A stretch of 64,000 nucleotides of DNA, taken from the sequence record NC_103192.1, one strand, 5' to 3'. Origin of the DNA: a phage. A model generated the notes under the pieces. The model had not been told where the DNA came from and searched no databases. It saw only the letters and a program-made list of their open reading frames with translations. Below are positions 13,009-64,000 of this stretch, one piece after another. The stretch's first letter is position 1. Every line of letters starts with the position of its first letter. Made by a program: the position numbers and the translations under genes.

Positions 13009-13428
13009 ATGAACATTAAATCTAATAATCCGGCATATAGCTTTGATAACGCTTTTTGTCACGGTCCGGCGGCGAAAGGATTCGAAATCGATGGTAAACT
13101 AATTATTGTCAATGTTGACGGGGAAGAGGTTGCAGTATATCCGGTGGCAGACGTTAAAAGCCGTTTGCAATGCCGCATGGATGTTACCGCCTACCAGCTT
13201 GATCCGGTCCGCATAGTTGCCCTGGTCCTGGAGGAAGAGATCAAAGCAATGCACCACAGCAACAAGTTTATTGGTGACGCTCAAGATAATATGAAGGTGT
13301 GCCGCCATAAAGTTAATGAAGTGCTTAAAGAATATGGCTTTAAAGATCTGATGATCAAACGTGAGGAAAAATTCCGCTACCGTAACGACCTGGCAAATCG
13401 GATTTTTGAAATATACGAATCATTATAA
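13009..13428 (+). CDS. Hypothetical early protein (139 aa)
   Basis: Promoter TTGACA at about 12932; SD aagaggtaaaaa. Confidence 0.5.
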   Translation: MNIKSNNPAYSFDNAFCHGPAAKGFEIDGKLIIVNVDGEEVAVYPVADVKSRLQCRMDVTAYQLDPVRIVALVLEEEIKAMHHSNKFIGDAQDNMKVCRHKVNEVLKEYGFKDLMIKREEKFRYRNDLANRIFEIYESL

Positions 13429-13446
13429 TTTCTTAACTGAATTATC

Positions 13447-13475
13447 AAGGGGCTTAAAGGCCCCTTTCTTTTTGT
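13447..13475 (+). terminator. Rho-independent terminator
   Basis: aaggggcttaaaggcccctt hairpin plus T-run; ends the plus-strand early block. Confidence 0.65.
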
Positions 13476-14079
13476 CTGCTCTTCTCCTACCATAAACGGC
13501 CCCACCCGGCAAGTGGAATAATTGACTAGCCAGCAATTGCCTGCACTGTACAAACATACAGGTAAAATAGTTATTGCATAACCTTTCATTGTGTGGTAGC
13601 AGTGCCATTTTTACACGTTTTTCCTTCCAAAATTGCACGTAATGCCGCTATTGCATAAATTTTAACCTGATGCATATCTTCAATATCTTGTCAACAACTA
13701 AAAATCTTTATAAGTCATACACTTACACCACCACAAAAGCGTGTTCTACGTGAAAAATCGGGTGTAACTATAGCCGCCAGATCTCAGAATTTACGTACGC
13801 TCACCAGTCTATAGCCTGCTAAGTATTTATTCCAACCATAGAATAACGGAATAGTCAATACCTGCATAAAATAATTATTCGTGTAAACTGCATAACATAA
13901 ATCAGCCAGGGTGTCAACATTTTTCGTAAACATCTCGAAATTATCACGATGAGTTATCATAAACAGAGAAATCTTTAGTCGTCTAATGTTTACTGTACAT
14001 TACTATACTGGCTGGAATCATTAGATGACTAAGAGAAAGATAAGAAATAGTTAACAATGTAATTGTTTTACCTGTAACA

Positions 14080-14310
14080 ATAAGGCAACTATGCAAACGA
14101 ATGGCATGGCGCGACGGAGTCGCGACATAATATAAAAGCAGTAACCATCACCCCCGTGATAGTTTGTCTGCAAACTATTAATCAGATCATAGTTGCCTTG
14201 TAGTTAGTTAATCATGACACAATAAGCAAGGCAACTATAGATCTGCTAATAGTTGCCCTGCTTTTATATTATGTCATAGAAACACCCGAAGGGGTGACCG
14301 AAGGTCACCT
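14080..14310. repeat. Nested inverted repeats (18-bp gacataatataaaagcag / ctgcttttatattatgtc; four copies of CAAGGCAACT in alternating orientation)
   Basis: Read directly: 14124-14141 versus 14258-14275; motif copies at about 14082, 14189, 14229, 14249. Confidence 0.7.
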
Positions 14311-14329
14311 GGCCTAGCCAGTGAAAGAT

Positions 14330-14530
14330 TATTAACTTGTTAATTGTTAACTTGCTAATTGTTTTCATGCAAACGAATGTCATGGCTTATCATATCTGCG
14401 TGAACAGTGAAACATGGAAATGATAAATATGTGAACAGTTATCCATGTAAACTATTAGACATGCAAACAATCAGGTGTGCAAAAGTGACATAGTATGTCA
14501 CCAGTATGTCATAGTATGTCAGACAAGTTT
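14330..14530. repeat. Direct repeats and overlapping palindromes (ATGCAAACRAAT x3, GTGAACAG x3, TGACATAGTATGTCA array)
   Basis: Read directly in a non-coding tract. Confidence 0.65.
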
Positions 14531-16006
14531 TTCTCCTCTTTGTCAAGTGCTGCATGGAAAATTTACAAACTGGTATGGTAGCATTTTTGCGGCCCTGTTT
14601 ACATTCAGGAGTGTATGTATAATCCTTGTTGTGTGGGCGTTTAGACGTCTGGACGGTCAGAAGTCCGCAGGTTAATATCTAATCTATTGGTTGCTAACTA
14701 TATCCCACACAAATAGTAAGAAATATAATTGTTATATGCGTAAACAGTAACTCATGTTATCAATCCATGTATGGATCGCCAGTGGTGCGCATAATGGGTA
14801 TTATGTTAAATTGCCCGTAATGATAACCATTCCCACAATGATAGGTATTCTCATTCACCCCCACAAGATAGGTTGCAAATGTTGTGCCACTGTGTGAACG
14901 GCCTCACCTATTAATTTGCCCCACTGCCTCGATATTTGAGAATTGTTATAAGAATGAGAAGTATTCCCATTCCGTCCGCCTGGCAGCACTCCAGTCGCTA
15001 ACGCTCTCGGGCTGAGAGCTATGCTCGATGCTACCGGCTCCTGACAGGGAGGCACTCCTGTAGGACAGGTCAAAATCGGGGCATAACTGGACCCCCCTTC
15101 AGATATTTCTGGCTGACTCTTCAGGTCTGTGTGGGAAAAGCCAACCTCTCCGGCAGAGGGGAGGGGGTCAATTAAAAAATTTACGTGGTGTATGAAGCGC
15201 TCTTCAGGCAAGGTGTGTATTATGGGAGGAATCACTCTTCAGGTGATGATATTTGTGGGTGTGATATTTGCTGGAAAGCCAGATATGACGGGACTCCCGG
15301 CGGGGCAGGGGTAGTACAGACAGGGAAAATGTGGAGAATGTGGTGGGTAAATTGATCAGGCAGGTAGAGTATGAAATATGTTACAGGTATGTTAAATATG
15401 GAGGGTGAATATCTGTAAGATTTGTGTGTAAAATCAAAGACTTAAGTGGTGTTGTGGTATTTTCTATAAATAATTCAAGTTTAATAGGTAATATTTGTCT
15501 CTATCCACTTTGTGTGGTAACCAGATTCAGATGAAATTGGTTTACAAGTGTATACATAATATACAAATTAAAGATACAAGAAACCCCCCTCCCCCTTCGG
15601 CTACCATTCACCTTTTCCTCTGACTGGTACTTAAACACTTATTCAGACTCTTCAGGTTATCACCCATATATCATATGGCAGTGACTGGTGTCCTCCGGCC
15701 CCTCTTTCGTCACCCGTCCGCTTCGCCATGCTAATGCCATAGCCAAAGGTTCGGTTGTTCACCCTGTTCACTCAGGTGTATCTCCATACCCCTTCAAACC
15801 GAAGAGAACAGAAAACCCGAATTACTCGGTAAAAGAAAAGAGAAGAACTTAATTTTATCAGGATAGGCAAGAATGTCAAGGCATGACTGCTCACTAAACA
15901 AGCAAACAGTCATGTGTGGGAGGTAAGTGATTGTGGTGGTAGGAAATTTAGTTGAAAGATGTGTTATAGGTGCTTCCAGCACTTTAGCCGGGCAGCTAAT
16001 TGTGTG

Positions 16007-56598: not shown

Positions 56599-56698
56599 TT
56601 TGTCCCTTTATTCTGCCACACAAATAACCCAGTGTCAACACTTGAAATTAACAAAACCGTTAGGTATACTATCATTCAAATTAAAACGGAGGGTTACT
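56599..56698. promoter_or_regulatory. Divergent promoter region between the minus-strand and plus-strand blocks
   Basis: Plus: TTGAAA, 17 nt, TATACT ahead of 56699; minus: TTGACA-containing sequence ahead of 56598. Confidence 0.5.
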
Positions 56699-57109
56699 AT
56701 GTCTAAAATGCTATATATCGTGCGTGGTCTACCAGGGTCTGGCAAATCAACACTGGCAAATGCGCTATCTTTAGAAGGTCTGTACCCACATTTTGAGAAC
56801 GACATGTTCTGGTACGACGATGACGGCAATTACAACTGGGATGCAAGTAAAGTAACACTTGCAGCAAAATGGTGCAAAGATAACGTAGAAGATATGATGC
56901 GTATGGGATACGACCGTATCGTGGTAAGTAATACGTTTACAAAAGAAAAATATGTTCAAGAATATATTGACATGGCGATCAGTCATGGATATAGTTATAC
57001 CGTGATCGTGGTTGAAAACCGCCATGGTAATAAAAGCATTCATGATGTTCCAGACAGGGTTGTGGATCGTATGGAACGCCAGCTTAAAAACTGCATTAAA
57101 CTTAAATGA
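56699..57109 (+). CDS. Polynucleotide kinase-like P-loop kinase
   Basis: Walker A GLPGSGKST at residues 10-18; SD ggaggg; 137 aa. Confidence 0.6.
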   Translation: MSKMLYIVRGLPGSGKSTLANALSLEGLYPHFENDMFWYDDDGNYNWDASKVTLAAKWCKDNVEDMMRMGYDRIVVSNTFTKEKYVQEYIDMAISHGYSYTVIVVENRHGNKSIHDVPDRVVDRMERQLKNCIKLK

Positions 57110-57116
57110 GGGATGT

Positions 57117-57671
57117 ATGAAATACTTTGTAACAAGCGACACACACTTTCTCCACCAGCGGGTAATGGAGTTCGACTCATGTCAAAAACACAGATCTCAG
57201 TATGATCACAATCTTGACAGTATGAATGCGGGAATCATCACCAAGTGGAACTCTGTTGTGTCACCTGCAGACACTGTGTTTCACTTGGGGGATATTGCGT
57301 GCACTAATGATAAGAATATCAACAAATTGCTTCCAGATGTTCTAAATATGTTGAACGGACATATTATTCTTGTTCGTGGTAACCATGACACAAGGACGAC
57401 TGTCAGAATTATGAAAGAGTTCGGTCATGAGGTTGTGGATTATTACGAGCTTCGCCACAACAAGAATTTGATCTGTATGAGCCATTACCAGTTTGCAACG
57501 TGGAACAGAAAGCATCACGGATCAGTCCAACTGTTCGGTCATGCTCACGGAACCACACAACAGTTGTTTGGCAGGCAGTTTGATGTCGGTTGGGATGTGT
57601 GGGGGAGACTCTTACCATTAGAAGAGGCATACCGTGTTGCAATGAGTTTTGCTATTGACAGCGGGGAGTAA
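57117..57671 (+). CDS. Calcineurin-like metallophosphoesterase
   Basis: SDTHF, GDIAC.ND, GNHD motifs in canonical order. Confidence 0.65.
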   Translation: MKYFVTSDTHFLHQRVMEFDSCQKHRSQYDHNLDSMNAGIITKWNSVVSPADTVFHLGDIACTNDKNINKLLPDVLNMLNGHIILVRGNHDTRTTVRIMKEFGHEVVDYYELRHNKNLICMSHYQFATWNRKHHGSVQLFGHAHGTTQQLFGRQFDVGWDVWGRLLPLEEAYRVAMSFAIDSGE

Positions 57672-57718
57672 TCTCCGCTATTTTAAAGAAAATTACCACA
57701 CAAGGAGAATCAGGAGAT

Positions 57719-58069
57719 ATGAAAGATGGGGATAAACTGCCATATCTTAAAGTCCCCCTTGGTATACTGTCTATGTCAAAAGTTTTGAATGACACAACTG
57801 GAGAGGTTGTTGTTCTTGACTTGTATGATAAGATCGTATACTGCTACCTGCACAACTGGTATAAGCTTGGAGGAAATTCACGCTTCACACCCAGCACAAG
57901 GAAAATTGCAGCAGATATTGGGATAAAGAAAACAAAAGCAGCAGCGTGCGTTAAAACTTTAGAATGTGCAGGGGTGGTTGAAACATCCACACAAGGGAGA
58001 GGCAAGAGATGCACATTTTCCAAAGTTTTGCCACCAGAAGAAGTTATTCGAATGTCAACAACTGGTTAG
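57719..58069 (+). CDS. Putative HTH DNA-binding protein (candidate initiator/regulator)
   Basis: RKIAADIGIKKTKAAACVKTLECAGVVE helix-turn-helix-like segment; iteron array immediately downstream. Confidence 0.4.
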   Translation: MKDGDKLPYLKVPLGILSMSKVLNDTTGEVVVLDLYDKIVYCYLHNWYKLGGNSRFTPSTRKIAADIGIKKTKAAACVKTLECAGVVETSTQGRGKRCTFSKVLPPEEVIRMSTTG

Positions 58070-58144
58070 ACCAGTAAAAACTTAAACATCTGTACTATAA
58101 GGATTTGTATGTTTTATGTTCGCTCTGGAACAGAGGTTAGTAAC

Positions 58145-58225
58145 TGTCCGTGATACGGACACTACTGTCCGTCACGCGGACACATCTGTCCGTAATACGG
58201 ACACTAACTGTCCGTGATACGGACA
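58145..58225. repeat. Four 17-bp palindromic iterons (TGTCCGTGATACGGACA and variants) at 21-22 bp spacing
   Basis: Copies at 58145, 58166, 58187, 58209. Confidence 0.85.
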
Positions 58226-58229
58226 CATA

Positions 58230-58345
58230 AAGAATATAACTAAAATAACTAAATAATAAAAAATAAAAGATCTAGTACTTATGGTACTAAAGTACATATA
58301 CTTAACTTATGTAGAATATACTAGATCCTAAGTACCATGTTTTAA
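58230..58345. other. AT-rich tract with short palindromes (candidate DNA unwinding element)
   Basis: Over 80 percent A+T immediately after the iterons; agtacttatggtact palindrome. Confidence 0.45.
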
Positions 58346-58374
58346 ATTTATTACTTATTATGGGTAGTGTCGGC

Positions 58375-58725
58375 CCTTCATTGGCACTCGCCTACGAGGG
58401 GCGAGATGCCGGGCCTCCATAGTGCACACAATAACAGAAGTGCATACATGCAGGACTGTTAACATGTGTGGGAGCGAAGCGATAGCGCAGGCCAAAGGCC
58501 GAGCACTAATGTGGACCACCGACGAAAGCTTGCCAGCGCCGGAAGGAGTCGGTTGAGAGCCTCCCGCGCGAGTTTGGTTAAAGTTTATGTGTGGAAACGG
58601 ACAGGAAGGCTCCTAAATCGCCACACAGCTGCGTAAACTATATCAAGTAAGGCAATCGCACCAGTTTGATAGAAAAGCTCGTTACAAAGCGATACAGTGA
58701 GTTTTTCTATAACTTGAAGAGGAGA
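58375..58725 (+). ncRNA. GC-rich structured non-coding segment (candidate structured RNA or long leader)
   Basis: About 350 nt with multiple complementary GC-rich stems (ctcgcc/ggcgag, ggcc aaa ggcc); no credible ORF. Confidence 0.3.
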
Positions 58726-58730
58726 CAGCT

Positions 58731-59309
58731 ATGAGTTCACGCAAAGATGACCGCGAAAAGATTGCAAAACGTTATCAGAATGAAGAACAGATGGAGAAAA
58801 CTTTCAAGTGGAAGCCGGGTTTCCAGCGTAATCATTCTAACGCTCGTGATCGTAAGCATCCGGATAAGTGGCTAACACCGCCAAAGGATGGCATGCAGGT
58901 TGGTGATGAGAAGGAGCTATCGCCCGGAAAAGATGGCAACTACATTCGCACTAAGGACGCTGGTCCAAAGGATGACAGCTATCTTGTAGATAAGGTTCTT
59001 GATGGTATTGATGTAGATGTTGACACTACACGGAACTTTTTTCTTGGGTGGTATCGCACAGGTTTTTTCGACATCAAGGCCATTCGTCGTGTTTGTGATA
59101 TTAAAAAGTCTGCATATGATGACGACTCGTTACATCGCACCCTGAGACAATATTCAGAAAGATATGGTCATCCGGTTATCACTCTTGACGATGTTAACGA
59201 AGTGATGTATCATGCAGAGGTTGTTGCAGGCAGATTTGGTGATGCATATCTTGATATCCTTTCTGCAAACGATGAGGTAATGTTGAATAAGATTTACTAC
59301 GAGCGTTGA
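58731..59309 (+). CDS. Hypothetical protein (192 aa)
   Basis: SD gaggagacag. Confidence 0.5.
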   Translation: MSSRKDDREKIAKRYQNEEQMEKTFKWKPGFQRNHSNARDRKHPDKWLTPPKDGMQVGDEKELSPGKDGNYIRTKDAGPKDDSYLVDKVLDGIDVDVDTTRNFFLGWYRTGFFDIKAIRRVCDIKKSAYDDDSLHRTLRQYSERYGHPVITLDDVNEVMYHAEVVAGRFGDAYLDILSANDEVMLNKIYYER

Positions 59310-59864: not shown

Positions 59865-60125
59865 AGATGAGTTTGATGGCTTTATCTCCGGATGCTTTGA
59901 AACAGGGTTCGGAGAAGACTGAGTTCCCCTTAGAGGTCTTGATAGTGCACCACACTTAAAATGGTAGGGGCAGCCAGCACATGACGATGTGACCCCAGCC
60001 AACCTGTAATAAGGTCGAGCCTGAGAGCGGTAATGGGTATAGCTGGAAAACCCACTCGTTGGGTCTTGTTGGTCCAGGACGCTGGGCAAGTCGCAGGGAA
60101 TACCACCCTGCGGCGAACTTGACAA
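59865..60125 (+). ncRNA. Structured non-coding segment (candidate small RNA)
   Basis: GC-rich hairpins (gcaggg aatacca ccctgc; cccc...gggg); only low-complexity overlapping ORFs. Confidence 0.25.
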
Positions 60126-60175
60126 TCAGTATTTGCCGTGATAAAATCCACCTATCACGTGATAATGGAGGAAAC

Positions 60176-60514
60176 ATGGCGGATACAACTAAAAAGCGTC
60201 GCCGTAGAGGCAGACCTCTGAAAGAGGAGTCCAACGCCATTCAGCTAGAGAAGAACATTCTTGATATGAAGGAATCTTTTATAGCGATGGTTCCAGAAGC
60301 TCACAAAGTTTTAAGAGAGCTGATGTTGGACCCGAAAACCAAACAAAATATTCGTCAAAGCATTGCAGAGTATGTTCTTGATAAGGCAGACCGAATGCAG
60401 GAAGAATATGATGAGATGTTTGGTGAAGAGGAAGAGGTGGTAGTAGAAGAGGCTGAAAAACCAGCACCTTTTATGCCATTTACCACAGAAATACAGCCTG
60501 TTGGCAATAGTTAA
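60176..60514 (+). CDS. Hypothetical protein with basic N-terminus and acidic C-terminus
   Basis: Promoter TTGACA, 17 nt, GATAAAAT at about 60120-60150; SD ggaggaaac; KKRRRRGRP motif. Confidence 0.5.
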   Translation: MADTTKKRRRRGRPLKEESNAIQLEKNILDMKESFIAMVPEAHKVLRELMLDPKTKQNIRQSIAEYVLDKADRMQEEYDEMFGEEEEVVVEEAEKPAPFMPFTTEIQPVGNS

Positions 60515-61206: not shown

Positions 61207-61305
61207 GCTAGGTAAGCCCTTTGGCAAGGGCGAGGATTTTTAATCCTGAAAATAGACGAGGTAGTCGTTGAATACATAGGTGGTTCGATTCCATCACCTA
61301 GCACC
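61207..61305 (+). tRNA. Atypical tRNA-like element (type II shape, irregular anticodon arm)
   Basis: Acceptor GCTAGGT/ACCTAGC, D-arm GCCC/GGGC, T-loop TTCGATT, long variable arm; anticodon region is either a 5-nt loop or a 4-bp stem with TTTTTAA loop; no CCA. Confidence 0.35.
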
Positions 61306-62654: not shown

Positions 62655-63079
62655 TGTCTAAGATTTACGGACCGTGTTCTGAAAAGCAGAAGATGATCCT
62701 CGAAAACGATGCAGATATTTTGGTAATCGGCGGTGCCGCAGGGTCTGGCAAGTCGTTCCTCTTGCAGTTGATGCCACTTAAAATTATTGATGACCCCCAC
62801 AGCTCTGTGGTTATGTTCCGAAGAACAACCCCACAGTTGGAAGGTGAGGGTGGGCTATGGCCTAAAGCAGTAGCTATTTATAGCGATCTGCCTGAAAACA
62901 TTAAGCCAAAGTTCAGAGAGAAGGATCATAAGTTCATTTTCCCACGGTTTGATCCGGGCACTGGCAAGTGGGATAGAAGCAAAAAGGGAGCTGTTGTAAA
63001 ATACTGCCACATGGAGTATGTACAAGATAAGCTTAACCATCAAGGGCTTGAGTACACCATGGTTTGCTTTGATGAGGGT
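62654..63079 (+). CDS. terL: Terminase large subunit, exon 1 (ATPase N-terminal part)
   Basis: Walker A GGAAGSGKS, Walker B MVCFDEG; reading frame then hits a stop where the intron begins. Confidence 0.7.
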
Positions 63080-63398
63080 TAATTTGTAGCTCTCGTAAAA
63101 CCTCCCTAATTGCGGGGAAATCTTTATTATTGACACCACCAACCTGTCATGGTAACATGACAGAGGCTTCGAAGAGAGATCGAAGGTATGGTAACAGTGT
63201 GTTAATTTAGATAATCCGCAGCGAAGCATCCGAAAGGATGAACGTTCAACGACTAGTCGAAAGACGTAGAATCAAGCGATTCGAAACGGGAGGATAAGCG
63301 GTTGTTGTCGCTTATAAGATATAGTCTGGTCTGCATGGAGACATGCAGCTGCCTGAAAATGGCGGGGCAAGACTAGCGACCTTGCCCGAACATAAACG
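63080..63398 (+). mobile_element. Group I intron (ORF-less) in terminase large subunit gene
   Basis: GTTCAACGACTAGTC and AAGATATAGTC core elements (P7-like), P9-like hairpin; exon 1 ends on U of ggt; frame resumes TQFEWEQIDYLMSRL. Confidence 0.6.
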
Positions 63399-63716
63399 AC
63401 GCAATTCGAATGGGAGCAGATAGACTACCTAATGTCTCGTCTGCGATCTCAGTCAAAGTATCCATCAAGAATGGTTATCAGCTGTAACCCCGACTCAGAA
63501 CACATGCTTGCCAAACTGATTAGGTGGTGGTTGGACGATGAAGGGTATCCAGATCCGGAGAAATGTGGTAAGAAAAGATATTTTATCCGACGCGACGGTG
63601 AATTTATCTGGGGAGACTCTAAGGAAGAGTTAATAGAGAAATACACCACGGTTAACGGACTAGGTGTGGAGATCAAGCCAAGACCGTTGTCATTCTCGTT
63701 CATAGGCGCAACCATT
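63399..63716 (+). CDS. terL: Terminase large subunit, exon 2
   Basis: Continues the ATPase domain (RMVISCNPD region) in frame after the intron; ends at a stop followed by a second intron. Confidence 0.6.
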
Positions 63717-64000
63717 AAATGATAGTGGCTTCGTGCAGAAATGCACGTCGAATAACTTCGTTAATTGCTGGAAAATCCTTTATGAAAGGACAATCAGCAG
63801 CCAAGCCTGAATATTCAGGAAGGTTCAACGACTATCCTGAGAGGGAGTAGGGCGCAAGCTTATGGCGCTCGAAAAGCGAAGCACCCTGAGATGGGTGGTG
63901 ATATAGTCTACTCTGCATGGTAACATGCAGCGGCACGTAATGGTGCGGAGGGTGGTGTTGCGACCACCCTTGAATATAAGGATTCGATAATCCTGTCTGC
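63717..64000 (+). mobile_element. Second group I intron in terminase gene (3' end beyond window)
   Basis: GTTCAACGACTA and GATATAGTC elements and a P9 hairpin closely resembling intron 1 and the nrdD intron. Confidence 0.55.

What the first reader, a model, noticed from the sequence alone, without database searches (positions are those of the whole stretch)
57719..58350. Iteron-type candidate origin: HTH gene, four 21-bp-phased palindromic sites, AT-rich tract
Four copies of TGTCCGTGATACGGACA (one with TCACGCG centre, one with TAATACG) lie at 21-22 bp phasing directly after a small HTH-like protein gene and directly before a tract of more than 80 percent A+T with short palindromes, followed by a GC-rich segment. 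This is the canonical layout of iteron-controlled origins or of an autoregulated operator array.
Basis: partly seen in the sequence, partly recalled or inferred. Interest (0 to 1): 0.6.

Follow-up and report, generated by a model that had tools for sequence, protein, structure and literature searches.

The report
Candidate replication origin of rV5-like phages
This stretch of an rV5-like E. coli phage genome looks like its replication origin: a small DNA-binding protein related to a proven replication initiator sits next to four evenly spaced binding sites and the easiest-to-melt DNA in the genome. No experiment has tested this.

Summary
The window is an rV5-like phage (genus Vequintavirus).

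- **Sites.** Four copies of TGTCCG-N5-CGGACA start at 58145, 58166, 58187 and 58209, spaced 21, 21 and 22 bp. They begin 75 bp after a 116-aa winged-helix gene (57719-58069).
- **Flanks.** A 134-bp tract of about 80% A+T follows (58227-58360), then a GC-rich segment.
- **Uniqueness.** The site occurs nowhere else in the whole rV5 genome.
- **Stability.** The AT tract is the least stable duplex segment of that genome.
- **Conservation.** The array and the tract vary less between genomes than the neighbouring coding DNA.
- **Protein.** Its only strong solved relative is 4RO3, the N-terminal domain of RepA from the Vibrio cholerae PLE satellite. RepA is a proven initiator that binds semi-palindromic iterons. 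The next structural matches are staphylococcal RepA_N plasmid initiators.
- **Relatives.** Sister genera and Aeromonas phages carry divergent homologues, each next to its own phased repeats and an AT-rich tract.

Best reading (about 0.6): an iteron-type origin with a minimal, N-terminal-domain-only initiator. The main rival (about 0.22) is a lambda-operator-like regulatory array. RefSeq already names the protein "replication initiation protein", but I found no annotation or paper describing the origin. It is a new member of a known kind, of moderate interest.

The parts
57655..57684 (+). Sigma-70-like promoter upstream of the winged-helix gene (TTGACA, 18-nt spacer, TATTTT)
   Evidence: Consensus scan, 10 of 12 matches. 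The same position is annotated as promoter P76 in rV5. No terminator is predicted between here and the array, so its transcript would probably run through the array and the AT tract.
57719..58069 (+). 116-aa winged-helix protein (rV5 gp075 / ORF79). It is like the N-terminal domain of RepA_N initiators and has no C-terminal domain. It is the candidate initiator.
   Evidence: ORF. PHROG 12838 'replication initiation protein', E = 7e-78. Pfam DUF6945 27.4 bits against a cut-off of 28, and HTH_36 23.8 against 25. PDB 4ro3 at E = 4.5e-6 for the single sequence and 3.6e-12 for the family profile. AlphaFold model with pLDDT 78; Foldseek ranks 4ro3 first, then RepA_N initiators 4pql, 4pt7 and 5kbj. 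4RO3 is the PLE RepA N-terminal domain.
58070..58140 (.). Variable spacer between the stop codon and the array
   Evidence: 28% of columns vary among 7 Vequintavirus genomes, the least conserved segment of the locus.
58145..58161 (.). Iteron 1, TGTCCG-TGATA-CGGACA
   Evidence: Arms invariant in 7 genomes; one centre position varies.
58166..58182 (.). Iteron 2, TGTCCG-TCACG-CGGACA
   Evidence: One arm position (58180) and one centre position vary among 7 genomes.
58187..58203 (.). Iteron 3, TGTCCG-TAATA-CGGACA (TGCCCG in the other six genomes compared)
58209..58225 (.). Iteron 4, TGTCCG-TGATA-CGGACA, next to the AT tract
   Evidence: Only centre positions 58215-58216 vary.
58227..58360 (.). AT-rich tract, the candidate DNA-unwinding element
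   Evidence: It is the least stable 60-, 100- and 140-bp duplex segment of the window and of the whole rV5 genome. For 100 bp it scores -101.7 kcal/mol against a mean of -133.5 (sd 5.7); the next weakest is -110.9. Only 8.2% of columns vary among 7 genomes, against 14-16.5% in flanking coding DNA.
58260..58272 (-). GATCTTTTATTTT, an exact match to the E. coli oriC 13-mer consensus GATCTnTTnTTTT. It contains a GATC.
   Evidence: The only exact match in the window, with 0.15 expected; 14 of 100 shuffles have at least one. This was noticed post hoc and is weak evidence on its own. AAAAGATCT-type elements recur in the AT tracts of the sister genera.
58361..58640 (.). GC-rich, purine-skewed non-coding segment after the AT tract. 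Its role is unknown and its membership in the element is uncertain.
   Evidence: 49-59% G+C in 100-nt windows over 58350-58649. No Rfam family. RNA fold z = -2.0 on the + strand and -2.7 on the - strand. 23% of columns vary, including an 18-nt deletion in rV5. It is absent from the homologous module of Mydovirus, Seunavirus and Henunavirus.
58731..59309 (+). ORF77-like 192-aa protein directly downstream. It has the same genus-restricted distribution as the winged-helix gene. Its function is unknown and any link to the module is speculative.
   Evidence: PHROG 12226, unknown function. No Pfam, NCBIfam or PDB match. Found in 119 phage records, the same set of hosts and genera as the winged-helix gene.

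Best explanation
This is an iteron-type replication origin of the rV5-like phage together with its initiator gene.

Proposed mechanism:
1. The 116-aa winged-helix protein is made early, from its own sigma-70-like promoter.
2. It binds as dimers to the four semi-palindromic 17-bp iterons. Their 21-22 bp spacing (two helical turns) places all dimers on one face of the DNA.
3. The resulting protein-DNA complex helps to open the adjacent 134-bp AT tract, the weakest duplex in the genome. Transcription reading through from the same promoter may assist.
4. The phage's own replication proteins then load on the opened DNA. These are a T7 gp4-like primase-helicase, a Pif1/RecD-like SF1B helicase and a T7-like DNA polymerase.

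Because the protein has only the DNA-binding N-terminal domain of RepA_N-type initiators, it probably remodels and melts DNA rather than recruiting a helicase through a second domain.

Shown here: the sequence anatomy, the uniqueness of the sites, the duplex-stability minimum, the conservation pattern, the homology to a proven initiator, and the recurrence of the layout in relatives.

Inferred: binding, dimerisation, melting, helicase loading, and the requirement for replication.
For: 1. **Homology.**
- A profile of the family hits PDB 4ro3 at E = 3.6e-12 over the whole domain; the next hit is at 7e-3.
- The single sequence hits 4ro3 at E = 4.5e-6.
- Foldseek on a pLDDT-78 model ranks 4ro3 first (E = 3.9e-6, TM 0.67), then the RepA_N initiators 4pql, 4pt7, 5kbj (a Rep-iteron complex) and 4pta.
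- PMC7145576 states that 4RO3 is the N-terminal domain of V. cholerae PLE RepA. It also reports that RepA binds a semi-palindromic repeat by EMSA, that this repeat is needed for PLE replication, and that RepA_N iterons are typically semi-palindromic direct repeats.
- All remote homologues score best against PHROG families named replication initiation, O-like or DnaD-like.

2. **Anatomy.**
- Four phased dyad-symmetric sites are followed by an AT tract. This matches ori-lambda, which has four iterons, each an imperfect inverted repeat bound by O dimers, flanked by an AT-rich tract.

3. **Uniqueness.**
- No other site with 1 mismatch or fewer exists in the 137,947-bp rV5 genome.

4. **Duplex stability.**
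- The tract is the least stable segment of the whole genome at three window sizes, about 5.6 sd from the mean at 100 bp.

5. **Selection.**
- 8.1% of array columns and 8.2% of AT-tract columns vary, against 14-16.5% in coding DNA and 28% in the adjacent spacer.
- Within the sites, 2 of 48 arm positions vary against 4 of 20 centre positions.

6. **Co-variation across clades.**
- Mydovirus, Seunavirus and Henunavirus carry a 105-107-aa homologue next to two 23-bp-spaced AGCCTATGCTCAAATTGA-type repeats, an AT tract and AAAAGATCT palindromes.
- Aeromonas phage PhAER-4 has GTGWCA-N-TGACA sites; two of them are 23 bp apart and followed by an AT tract. Four of its five genome-wide matches cluster at the gene.
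- The gene lies on the opposite strand relative to the repeat-plus-AT module in Vequintavirus compared with the sister genera. This argues that the module's role is not merely autoregulation of that gene.

7. **Location.**
- The array lies 1.46 kb from the global minimum of cumulative GC skew of rV5, at 66,689.
- In three sister genera the module sits exactly at the divergent transcription switch.

8. **Promoters.**
- No sigma-70-like promoter overlaps the array on either strand.

9. **The same iteron elsewhere.**
- In two high-GC viral contigs, arrays of TGTCCG-N5-CGGACA with a 21-bp period lie inside genes, just after an N-terminal winged helix. This is the lambda-O-like arrangement.
- One of those proteins hits PHROG replication-initiation families.
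Against: - No experiment exists for any rV5-like phage. I found no paper on their origin; the rV5 paper attempted only skew analysis.
- The protein lacks the C-terminal domain that full RepA_N initiators carry.
- It does not hit Pfam RepA_N, and it scores just under the DUF6945 and HTH_36 cut-offs.
- The winged-helix fold is shared with many repressors.
- Tandem 17-bp palindromes are also how lambda-type operators look.
- GC skew in these phages follows gene orientation, so the skew minimum is weak evidence. It falls at the transcription switch, not at the array.
- In PhAER-4 the homologous locus is about 58 kb from the skew minimum, and its AT tract is only the second weakest.
- There are no DnaA boxes nearby, so a host-DnaA-assisted mechanism has no support.
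- One of the unrelated arrays of the same motif lies upstream of a GntR-ABC operon, which looks like an operator context.
- Large lytic phages can have several origins or use recombination-dependent replication.
Confidence: 0.6

Rival explanations
1. The array is only a transcriptional operator. The small winged-helix protein would be a dimeric repressor or activator, as originally annotated for rV5. It would bind four tandem palindromic operators, like lambda OR/OL, to control transcription entering the downstream operon (ORF77, the tRNAs and the late genes) or a weak promoter in the AT tract. The AT tract would be promoter or UP-element DNA.
For: - Many records annotate the gene as 'putative transcriptional regulator'.
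- The fold is shared with MarR, GntR and CodY repressors.
- 17-bp palindromes at a period of about two helical turns resemble lambda operators (my own knowledge).
- A 5-of-6 -10-like hexamer, TATAAC at 58235-58240, lies just after site 4 (read).
- In Mydovirus the repeats lie between a strong leftward promoter (TTGACA, 17-nt spacer, GATAAT) and the gene's start codon, which is a classic autorepression geometry.
- An array of the same motif lies upstream of a GntR-ABC operon in a Ruminococcus MAG.
Against: - The specific homology is to a proven initiator, at E = 3.6e-12, while repressors score 7e-3 or worse.
- No consensus-like promoter overlaps the array on either strand.
- The site is unique in the genome, so there is no regulon.
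- In Vequintavirus the sites are downstream of the gene, so they cannot autoregulate its promoter. Yet they are kept next to the AT tract.
- The AT tract is a genome-wide stability minimum and is nearly invariant, which is more constraint than a promoter region needs.
- Initiators commonly autoregulate as well, so regulatory geometry in the sister genera does not argue against an origin.
Confidence: 0.22
2. The region is a transcription-primed origin, as in phages T4 and T7. It would be an origin, but opening and priming would come from transcription through the AT tract. An R-loop would be stabilised by the purine-rich, GC-rich segment downstream. The winged-helix protein would only modulate firing, for example by roadblocking or silencing, and would not be the initiator.
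For: - A promoter upstream of the gene and no predicted terminator before the tract mean the tract is probably transcribed.
- The GC-rich segment has positive GC and AT skew on the transcribed-sense strand (GC skew +0.16 to +0.19, AT skew up to +0.37). This would favour a stable RNA-DNA hybrid (inference).
- The phage replisome is T7-like.
- In Mydovirus the gene's own promoter also reads through the AT tract and the repeats.
Against: - The GC-rich segment is missing from the homologous modules of the sister genera and is less conserved than the array and the tract.
- The protein's closest characterised relative is an initiator that is sufficient, together with phage functions, to drive replication from its origin.
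Confidence: 0.1
3. The array is some other cis-acting site bound by a small winged-helix protein. It could be a packaging (pac) recognition site or a centromere-like site, since it lies a few kb upstream of the terminase gene.
For: - The locus lies upstream of the large terminase gene. That gene starts about 4.8 kb after the winged-helix gene in FV3, and two group I introns mark it near 63.1-63.9 kb in the window.
- Small DNA-binding proteins that bind repeat arrays include terminase small subunits and TubR-type centromere binders. A TubR chain appears as a very weak hit, E = 1.3.
Against: - There is no homology to terminase small subunits or partition proteins at meaningful E-values.
- A strictly lytic phage has no obvious need for partition.
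- The genome-wide stability minimum next to the sites has no role in those systems.
Confidence: 0.04

Closest known systems
RepA and the origin of the Vibrio cholerae phage satellite PLE (RepA_N family; N-terminal domain structure PDB 4RO3; Barth et al., PMC7145576)
   Same: - It is the best sequence and structure match of the protein family.
- Its winged-helix N-terminal domain crystallised as a dimer.
[quoted passage not shown]
- The element replicates with a phage replisome and depends on an SF1B helicase. rV5 encodes a Pif1/RecD-like SF1B helicase.
   Different: - PLE RepA has a C-terminal domain; the rV5-type protein (116 aa) stops after the N-terminal domain.
- The PLE origin lies in a non-coding region between orf5 and orf7, apart from repA, which is in the orf7-14 gene cluster.
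- The PLE inverted sub-repeats are 13 bp, against 6-bp arms here.
- PLE is a satellite that parasitises a phage, whereas this would be the phage's own origin.
RepA_N initiators of staphylococcal multiresistance plasmids (pSK41, pTZ2162; PDB 4PQL, 4PT7, 5KBJ, 4PTA)
   Same: - They are the next-best structural matches over the whole domain, including the N-terminal extension (Foldseek E = 7.5e-4 to 4e-3, TM 0.51-0.57).
- Their dimers bind semi-palindromic iterons.
   Different: - No sequence-level match to Pfam RepA_N.
- A genus-specific C-terminal domain is present there and absent here.
- Their hosts are Firmicutes.
Bacteriophage lambda O protein and ori-lambda
   Same: - Four iterons, each an imperfect inverted repeat bound by initiator dimers, directly flanked by an AT-rich tract that is unwound.
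- Two iterons plus the AT tract are the minimal unwinding unit, which matches the two-repeat versions in the sister genera.
- Transcription through the region activates the origin.
   Different: - Ori-lambda lies inside the O gene, and O has a C-terminal domain that binds the P-DnaB complex (my own knowledge).
- Here the origin is outside the gene and there is no second domain.
- Pfam Phage_rep_O is hit by only 1 of 20 family members, at E = 0.004.
Iteron plasmid origins (RK2 oriV, F, R6K, P1 oriR)
   Same: - Direct repeats at helical phasing sit next to an AT-rich unwinding element that carries 13-mer repeats.
- The order iterons, AT-rich tract, GC-rich segment recalls RK2 oriV (my own knowledge).
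   Different: - Those Rep proteins have two winged-helix domains and bind non-palindromic iterons as monomers.
- DnaA boxes are part of those origins; none is present here.
Lambda OR/OL tandem operators (the regulatory look-alike)
   Same: Tandem 17-bp palindromic sites with a period near two helical turns, bound by dimers of a small helix-turn-helix protein (my own knowledge).
   Different: - Operators overlap promoters, and none is detectable here.
- There is no second operator set.
- The protein is not related to CI or Cro.

Membership tests
RepA_N-type initiator with iteron origin (includes PLE RepA / Pfam DUF6945) | N-terminal winged-helix domain homologous to the RepA_N / PLE RepA N-terminal domain | tested here: met
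   Family profile against 4ro3 at E = 3.6e-12 over profile positions 8-108. Foldseek ranks 4ro3 at E = 3.9e-6 and TM 0.67, then 4pql, 4pt7 and 5kbj. All 20 family members hit DUF6945 at E <= 0.01.
RepA_N-type initiator with iteron origin (includes PLE RepA / Pfam DUF6945) | Passes the curated Pfam model (RepA_N PF06970, or DUF6945 PF22182) | tested here: not met
   RepA_N does not appear at E <= 1. DUF6945 scores 27.4 bits against a cut-off of 28, just below it.
RepA_N-type initiator with iteron origin (includes PLE RepA / Pfam DUF6945) | A second, host- or genus-specific C-terminal domain | tested here: not met
   The protein is 116 aa and ends about 10 residues after the wing. Sister-genus homologues are 105-107 aa. 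Only the Aeromonas clade adds a short acidic tail that ends in [ILVF]PF, with one extra W in one member.
RepA_N-type initiator with iteron origin (includes PLE RepA / Pfam DUF6945) | Iterons that are semi-palindromic direct repeats | tested here: met
   Four direct repeats, each with 6-bp inverted arms around a 5-bp centre. PMC7145576 describes this as typical of the family.
RepA_N-type initiator with iteron origin (includes PLE RepA / Pfam DUF6945) | The protein binds the iterons, and both are required for replication | not testable with these tools
   This needs EMSA or footprinting, marker-frequency sequencing and mutants.
Lambda O / ori-lambda type origin | Four dyad-symmetric iterons directly flanked by an AT-rich tract | tested here: met
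   The lambda description comes from PMC7466680.
Lambda O / ori-lambda type origin | Origin located inside the initiator gene, and an initiator with a C-terminal loader-binding domain | tested here: not met
   The array lies 75 bp beyond the stop codon and the protein has one domain. The gene-internal layout is seen only in the unrelated contigs L026 and L027, which carry the same motif.
Lambda O / ori-lambda type origin | Membership of Pfam Phage_rep_O | tested here: not met
   Not hit by the window protein. Hit by 1 of 20 family members at E = 0.004.
Iteron plasmid origin (Rep with two winged-helix domains; RK2/F/R6K/P1 type) | Rep protein with two winged-helix domains | tested here: not met
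   The model shows a single winged helix. The defining feature is taken from PMC10797057.
Iteron plasmid origin (Rep with two winged-helix domains; RK2/F/R6K/P1 type) | DnaA boxes in the origin | tested here: not met
   No TTWTNCACA match lies between 49,468 and the end of the window.
Iteron plasmid origin (Rep with two winged-helix domains; RK2/F/R6K/P1 type) | AT-rich unwinding element with repeated 13-mers next to the iterons | tested here: inconclusive
   The AT tract is the genome-wide stability minimum. Only one exact oriC-type 13-mer is present, and 14% of shuffled windows also have one.
Tandem operator of a phage repressor (lambda OR/OL type) | Sites overlap the -35 or -10 element of a promoter they control | tested here: not met
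   No sigma-70-like promoter was found between 57,685 and 59,185 on either strand. The scan covers consensus-like sigma-70 promoters only, so a weak or phage-specific promoter is not excluded.
Tandem operator of a phage repressor (lambda OR/OL type) | Palindromic sites in tandem, suited to dimers | tested here: met

The most novel reading that the evidence does not exclude
A 105-116-aa protein consisting only of the RepA_N-type N-terminal domain would be a complete origin-opening initiator. It would need no recruiting domain, because it hands the melted AT tract to phage helicases that load themselves (a gp4-like primase-helicase and an SF1B helicase). In addition, the TGTCCG-N5-CGGACA iteron with its 21-bp period would be a recognition code shared by winged-helix initiators of very distant mobile elements, from E. 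coli phages to high-GC viruses and myxobacterial elements.
Probability: 0.25. Interest if true: 0.65.

Novelty: new member of a known kind. Interest (0 to 1): 0.45.

Why it matters
rV5-like phages (Vequintavirinae) are among the most often isolated E. coli phages and are used in biocontrol and therapy work. Their origin of replication is unknown: the rV5 genome paper tried only skew analysis and found that the shifts track transcription.

This locus gives a precise, testable candidate of about 220 bp plus one small gene.

If confirmed, it would extend RepA_N-type initiation from Gram-positive plasmids and one Vibrio satellite to large lytic coliphages. It would also provide a minimal, single-domain initiator for asking how this family opens DNA, which the PLE authors state is still unknown. 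Finally, it would supply a phage-dependent origin that could be useful for engineering these phages.

Tried and rejected
- **GC skew as a locator.** The global minimum in rV5 (66,689) coincides with the divergent transcription switch, 1.46 kb from the array. In Aeromonas phage PhAER-4 the homologous locus is nowhere near the minimum. Skew is therefore confounded by gene orientation, and I give it little weight.
- **DnaA boxes.** None lie near the locus.
- **Cruciform potential of the AT tract.** It is not above shuffles (z = -0.79).
- **The oriC 13-mer.** There is one exact hit inside the tract, but 14% of shuffled windows have at least one. This is suggestive only.
- **Known RNA families in the GC-rich segment.** None found. 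RNA folding is only mildly better than shuffles on both strands.
- **Homologues of the protein.** tblastn in phages finds the genus only. The word-indexed protein search finds 5 close relatives. IMG/VR finds none. The exhaustive HMMER search finds 12 proteins. The family is small and divergent.
- **ORF77 as a detached C-terminal domain of the initiator.** It has no similarity to anything, including the C-terminal part of the L027 initiator-like protein.
- **A homologue next to the AT-rich intergenic region of phi92/phAPEC8-like phages (ESCO13).** Neither flanking gene matches the family profile.
- **The first, alignment-free structure prediction.** It was unusable (pLDDT 48).
- **Genes next to the myxobacterial arrays.** In high-GC DNA the ORF calls were too ambiguous to assign neighbours.
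Full report
**What the window is.** The 1.15-kb stretch around the finding matches 118 phage records at 80-99% identity, all but one above 90%. Nearly all are Escherichia phages of the genus Vequintavirus, the rV5-like myoviruses of about 137 kb.
- The gene at 57719-58069 is rV5 gp075 / ORF79. GenBank depositors call it "putative transcriptional regulator", while RefSeq calls it "replication initiation protein".
- It lies near the head of a long rightward unit: polynucleotide kinase, phosphoesterase, this gene, small ORFs, tRNAs, spanins, terminase and structural genes.
- That unit starts 1.1 kb downstream of a divergent transcription switch at about 56,600-56,700.

- Four 17-bp sites, TGTCCG-N5-CGGACA, start at 58145, 58166, 58187 and 58209. 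As 22-nt direct repeats they are spaced 21, 21 and 22 bp. The pattern is far above chance: 10 strand-matches against 0.78 expected, and 0 of 100 shuffles reach that.
- The sites begin 75 bp after the stop codon.
- 58227-58326 is 82% A+T.
- 58350-58649 has 49-59% G+C in a window that averages about 42%.

**The sites are a single cluster.** In the complete rV5 genome the only sites with 1 mismatch or fewer are these four, at rV5 65,152-65,232. The few 2-mismatch sites are scattered singles. The protein therefore has no detectable regulon.

**The AT tract is physically special.** I computed a nearest-neighbour stacking-energy profile. The tract is the least stable 60-, 100- and 140-bp segment both of the 64-kb window and of the whole rV5 genome. 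For 100 bp it scores -101.7 kcal/mol, against a genome mean of -133.5 (sd 5.7) and a runner-up of -110.9.
- It also holds the window's only exact match to the E. coli oriC 13-mer consensus GATCTnTTnTTTT (58260-58272, minus strand). One such match arises in 14% of shuffles, so I treat this as a hint only.
- There are no DnaA boxes within 8 kb.
- The tract's short palindromes do not fold better than shuffles.

**Selection.** I aligned seven Vequintavirus genomes and counted the share of variable columns in each segment.

| Segment | Variable columns |
|---|---|
| Three flanking genes and ORF77 | 14-16.5% |
| Spacer between stop codon and array | 28% |
| Iteron array | 8.1% |
| AT tract | 8.2% |
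| GC-rich segment (includes an 18-nt deletion in rV5) | 23% |

Inside the sites, 2 of 48 arm positions vary, 4 of 20 centre positions vary, and 0 of 13 linker positions vary. The arms and the AT tract are therefore under stronger constraint than protein-coding DNA, and the arms are the recognised part.

**The protein.**
- It is a single winged helix. With a 20-sequence alignment the AlphaFold model reaches pLDDT 78; the alignment-free attempt was unusable.
- In Pfam it scores just under the cut-offs of DUF6945 (27.4 against 28 bits) and HTH_36 (23.8 against 25), and it does not hit RepA_N.
- It belongs to PHROG 12838, "replication initiation protein".
- Against the PDB, the only significant sequence hit is 4ro3, at E = 4.5e-6 for the single sequence and 3.6e-12 for the family profile, which covers the whole domain. 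The next hit, at 7e-3, begins a long list of ordinary MarR, GntR and CodY regulators.
- Foldseek gives the same order: 4ro3 first (TM 0.67), then the staphylococcal plasmid initiators 4pql, 4pt7, 5kbj (a Rep-iteron DNA complex) and 4pta, then generic repressors.

**What 4RO3 is.** Barth et al. (PMC7145576) identify 4RO3 as the N-terminal domain of RepA of the Vibrio cholerae phage satellite PLE. They report the following:
- It belongs structurally to the RepA_N family.
- It binds a semi-palindromic repeat at the PLE origin by EMSA.
- That repeat is needed for PLE replication, and RepA drives replication from the PLE origin only during phage infection.
- RepA_N iterons are typically semi-palindromic direct repeats.
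- PLE replication requires an SF1B helicase of the helper phage.
- How RepA_N proteins open DNA is unknown.

rV5 itself encodes a Pif1/RecD-like SF1B helicase, a gp4-like primase-helicase and a T7-like polymerase.

**Relatives carry the same layout with different repeats.** The protein is genus-restricted by BLAST, and only a dozen remote homologues exist among 1.8 billion representative proteins. All of those score best against initiator-type PHROG families.
- *Sister genera.* Following the conserved phosphoesterase gene into other genera led to a 105-aa homologue (31% identity over 48 aligned residues) in Mydovirus and Seunavirus, and a 107-aa homologue in Henunavirus. Each abuts two AGCCTATGCTCAAATTGA-type repeats spaced 23 bp apart. 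These are followed by an AT-rich tract of about 60-100 bp with AAAAGATCT palindromes. The whole module sits exactly at the divergent transcription switch.
- *Aeromonas phages.* PhAER-4 and 4L372D have 128-aa homologues next to a long AT-rich region of about 440-480 bp. In PhAER-4, two GTGACA-N-TGACA sites lie 23 bp apart in front of an AT tract, and 4 of the 5 matches in the genome cluster there.
- *Gene orientation.* In Vequintavirus the gene's 3' end faces the repeats. In the sister genera its 5' end does, while the order repeats, then AT tract, keeps the same polarity relative to the phosphoesterase gene. The module thus stays with the gene while the gene flips. That is hard to explain if its only role were to control that gene's promoter.
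- *Transcription.* In Mydovirus a strong leftward promoter reads through the AT tract and the repeats into the gene. In the window the gene's promoter reads through the gene into the array, and no terminator is predicted. In both cases the module is transcribed, as ori-lambda is.
- *A recruiting tail.* All eight members of the Aeromonas clade end in an acidic tail plus [ILVF]PF, followed by one extra W in one member. This resembles the C-terminal tip of E. coli SSB (DDDIPF, from my own knowledge), a known docking peptide for replication proteins. The window's protein lacks it.

**The same iteron elsewhere.** I searched for two adjacent sites as an exact pattern of 24 specified bases.
- Seven stretches matched in 596 Gb of prokaryotic genomes. 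By my own estimate, chance would give far fewer than one (not computed with a tool). They lie in four Myxococcales or deltaproteobacterial MAGs, one Byssovorax MAG, Hymenobacter and one Ruminococcus MAG. Two more matched in IMG/VR.
- In both viral contigs, which are 66-70% G+C, arrays of three and six sites with a 21-bp period lie inside a gene, immediately after an N-terminal winged helix. A locally A+T-richer stretch follows. This is the lambda-O arrangement.
- One of these proteins hits PHROG "replication initiation protein" and "O-like" families. Their winged helices align only weakly with the rV5 family.
- The Ruminococcus array lies upstream of a GntR-ABC transporter operon. I could not resolve the myxobacterial contexts. 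The motif is therefore not exclusively tied to origins. I count this as supportive but not decisive.

**What argues against.**
- Nothing has been tested experimentally. I found no paper on the origin of these phages.
- The protein lacks the second domain of RepA_N initiators and fails the curated Pfam thresholds.
- Tandem 17-bp palindromes also describe lambda operators.
- A 5-of-6 -10-like hexamer follows site 4.
- The geometry in the sister genera would allow autorepression.
- GC skew is confounded by gene orientation. The rV5 minimum (66,689) sits on the transcription switch, 1.46 kb from the array. In PhAER-4 the homologous locus is far from the minimum and its AT tract is only the second weakest.

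**Verdict.** The most likely reading is an iteron-type origin with a minimal, N-terminal-domain-only initiator of the RepA_N / PLE RepA kind (about 0.6).
- It works like ori-lambda and RepA_N origins, but it is not a member of the Pfam RepA_N, Phage_rep_O or two-domain Rep families.
- The main rival is a purely regulatory operator array (about 0.22).
- A transcription-primed origin in which the protein is only a modulator is a smaller possibility (about 0.1).
- It is a new member of a known kind. The protein name in RefSeq already points this way, but I found the iterons and the unwinding element neither annotated nor described.
- Marker-frequency sequencing of infected cells and an EMSA would settle the question quickly.

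Noticed in passing
window 58361-58640: A GC-rich (49-59% G+C), purine-skewed non-coding segment follows the AT tract. It is conserved within the genus but absent from the homologous modules of the sister genera. It matches no Rfam family. Its RNA fold z-score is -2.0 on the + strand and -2.7 on the - strand. rV5 annotates a 56-aa arginine-rich ORF78 inside it and lacks 18 nt of it. Its role is unknown.
   Followed up: partly
window ~59900-60150: A second GC-rich (52-55% G+C) stretch without a convincing ORF lies just upstream of the ORF at 60176-60514. A strong sigma-70-like promoter lies at 60119-60147. It shows no sequence similarity to the first GC-rich segment.
   Followed up: partly
window 63070-63348 and 63706-63930: Two group I introns (Rfam 84 and 93 bits) lie in what rV5 annotates as a large terminase gene joined from three pieces, with an HNH endonuclease ORF inside.
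   Followed up: no
window 61207-61305: This tRNA-like gene is called by ARAGORN with a four-base anticodon (atcc) and an undetermined amino acid, and it scores 35.5 bits in Rfam. A related phage record annotates a tRNA-Lys at the equivalent place. It could be an intron-containing or otherwise unusual tRNA.
   Followed up: no
window 13428-16006: This stretch is the counterpart of the 2.6-kb 'non-coding' box of rV5, at a convergent gene junction. It has no convincing ORFs, scattered 18-24-nt direct and inverted repeats, and several of the second-tier AT-rich low-stability segments. It could be an alternative origin or a terminus, and I did not study it.
   Followed up: partly
L026 4906-5030; L027 820-879; L019-L025: Arrays of TGTCCG-N5-CGGACA with a 21-bp period occur in very distant genomes: Myxococcales, Hymenobacter and Ruminococcus MAGs, and two high-GC viral contigs. 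In both viral contigs the array is encoded inside a gene, right after an N-terminal winged helix, as in lambda O. It appears there as a peptide repeat such as DVRHAD or VRNTD.
   Followed up: partly
alignment A3 (proteins P0017, P0018, P0021, P0027-P0029, P0031; loci L014-L016): The Aeromonas-phage branch of this winged-helix family ends in an acidic tail that finishes with [ILVF]PF. This resembles the C-terminal docking tip of bacterial SSB and suggests direct recruitment of replication proteins.
   Followed up: no
L009 380-600 (Escherichia phage ESCO13, Phapecoctavirus): The intergenic region at the divergent transcription switch is very AT-rich, with GATC palindromes and clusters of (A)GTAC repeats that resemble those inside the window's AT tract. 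Neither neighbouring gene belongs to the winged-helix family.
   Followed up: partly
GenBank MG0656xx records; PLSDB CP057073.1: Eighteen records named 'Campylobacter phage' are more than 90% identical to this E. coli rV5-like locus. Separately, a 137.5-kb E. coli 'plasmid' record is an rV5-like phage genome. Mislabelling, contamination or a carrier state could explain these.
   Followed up: no
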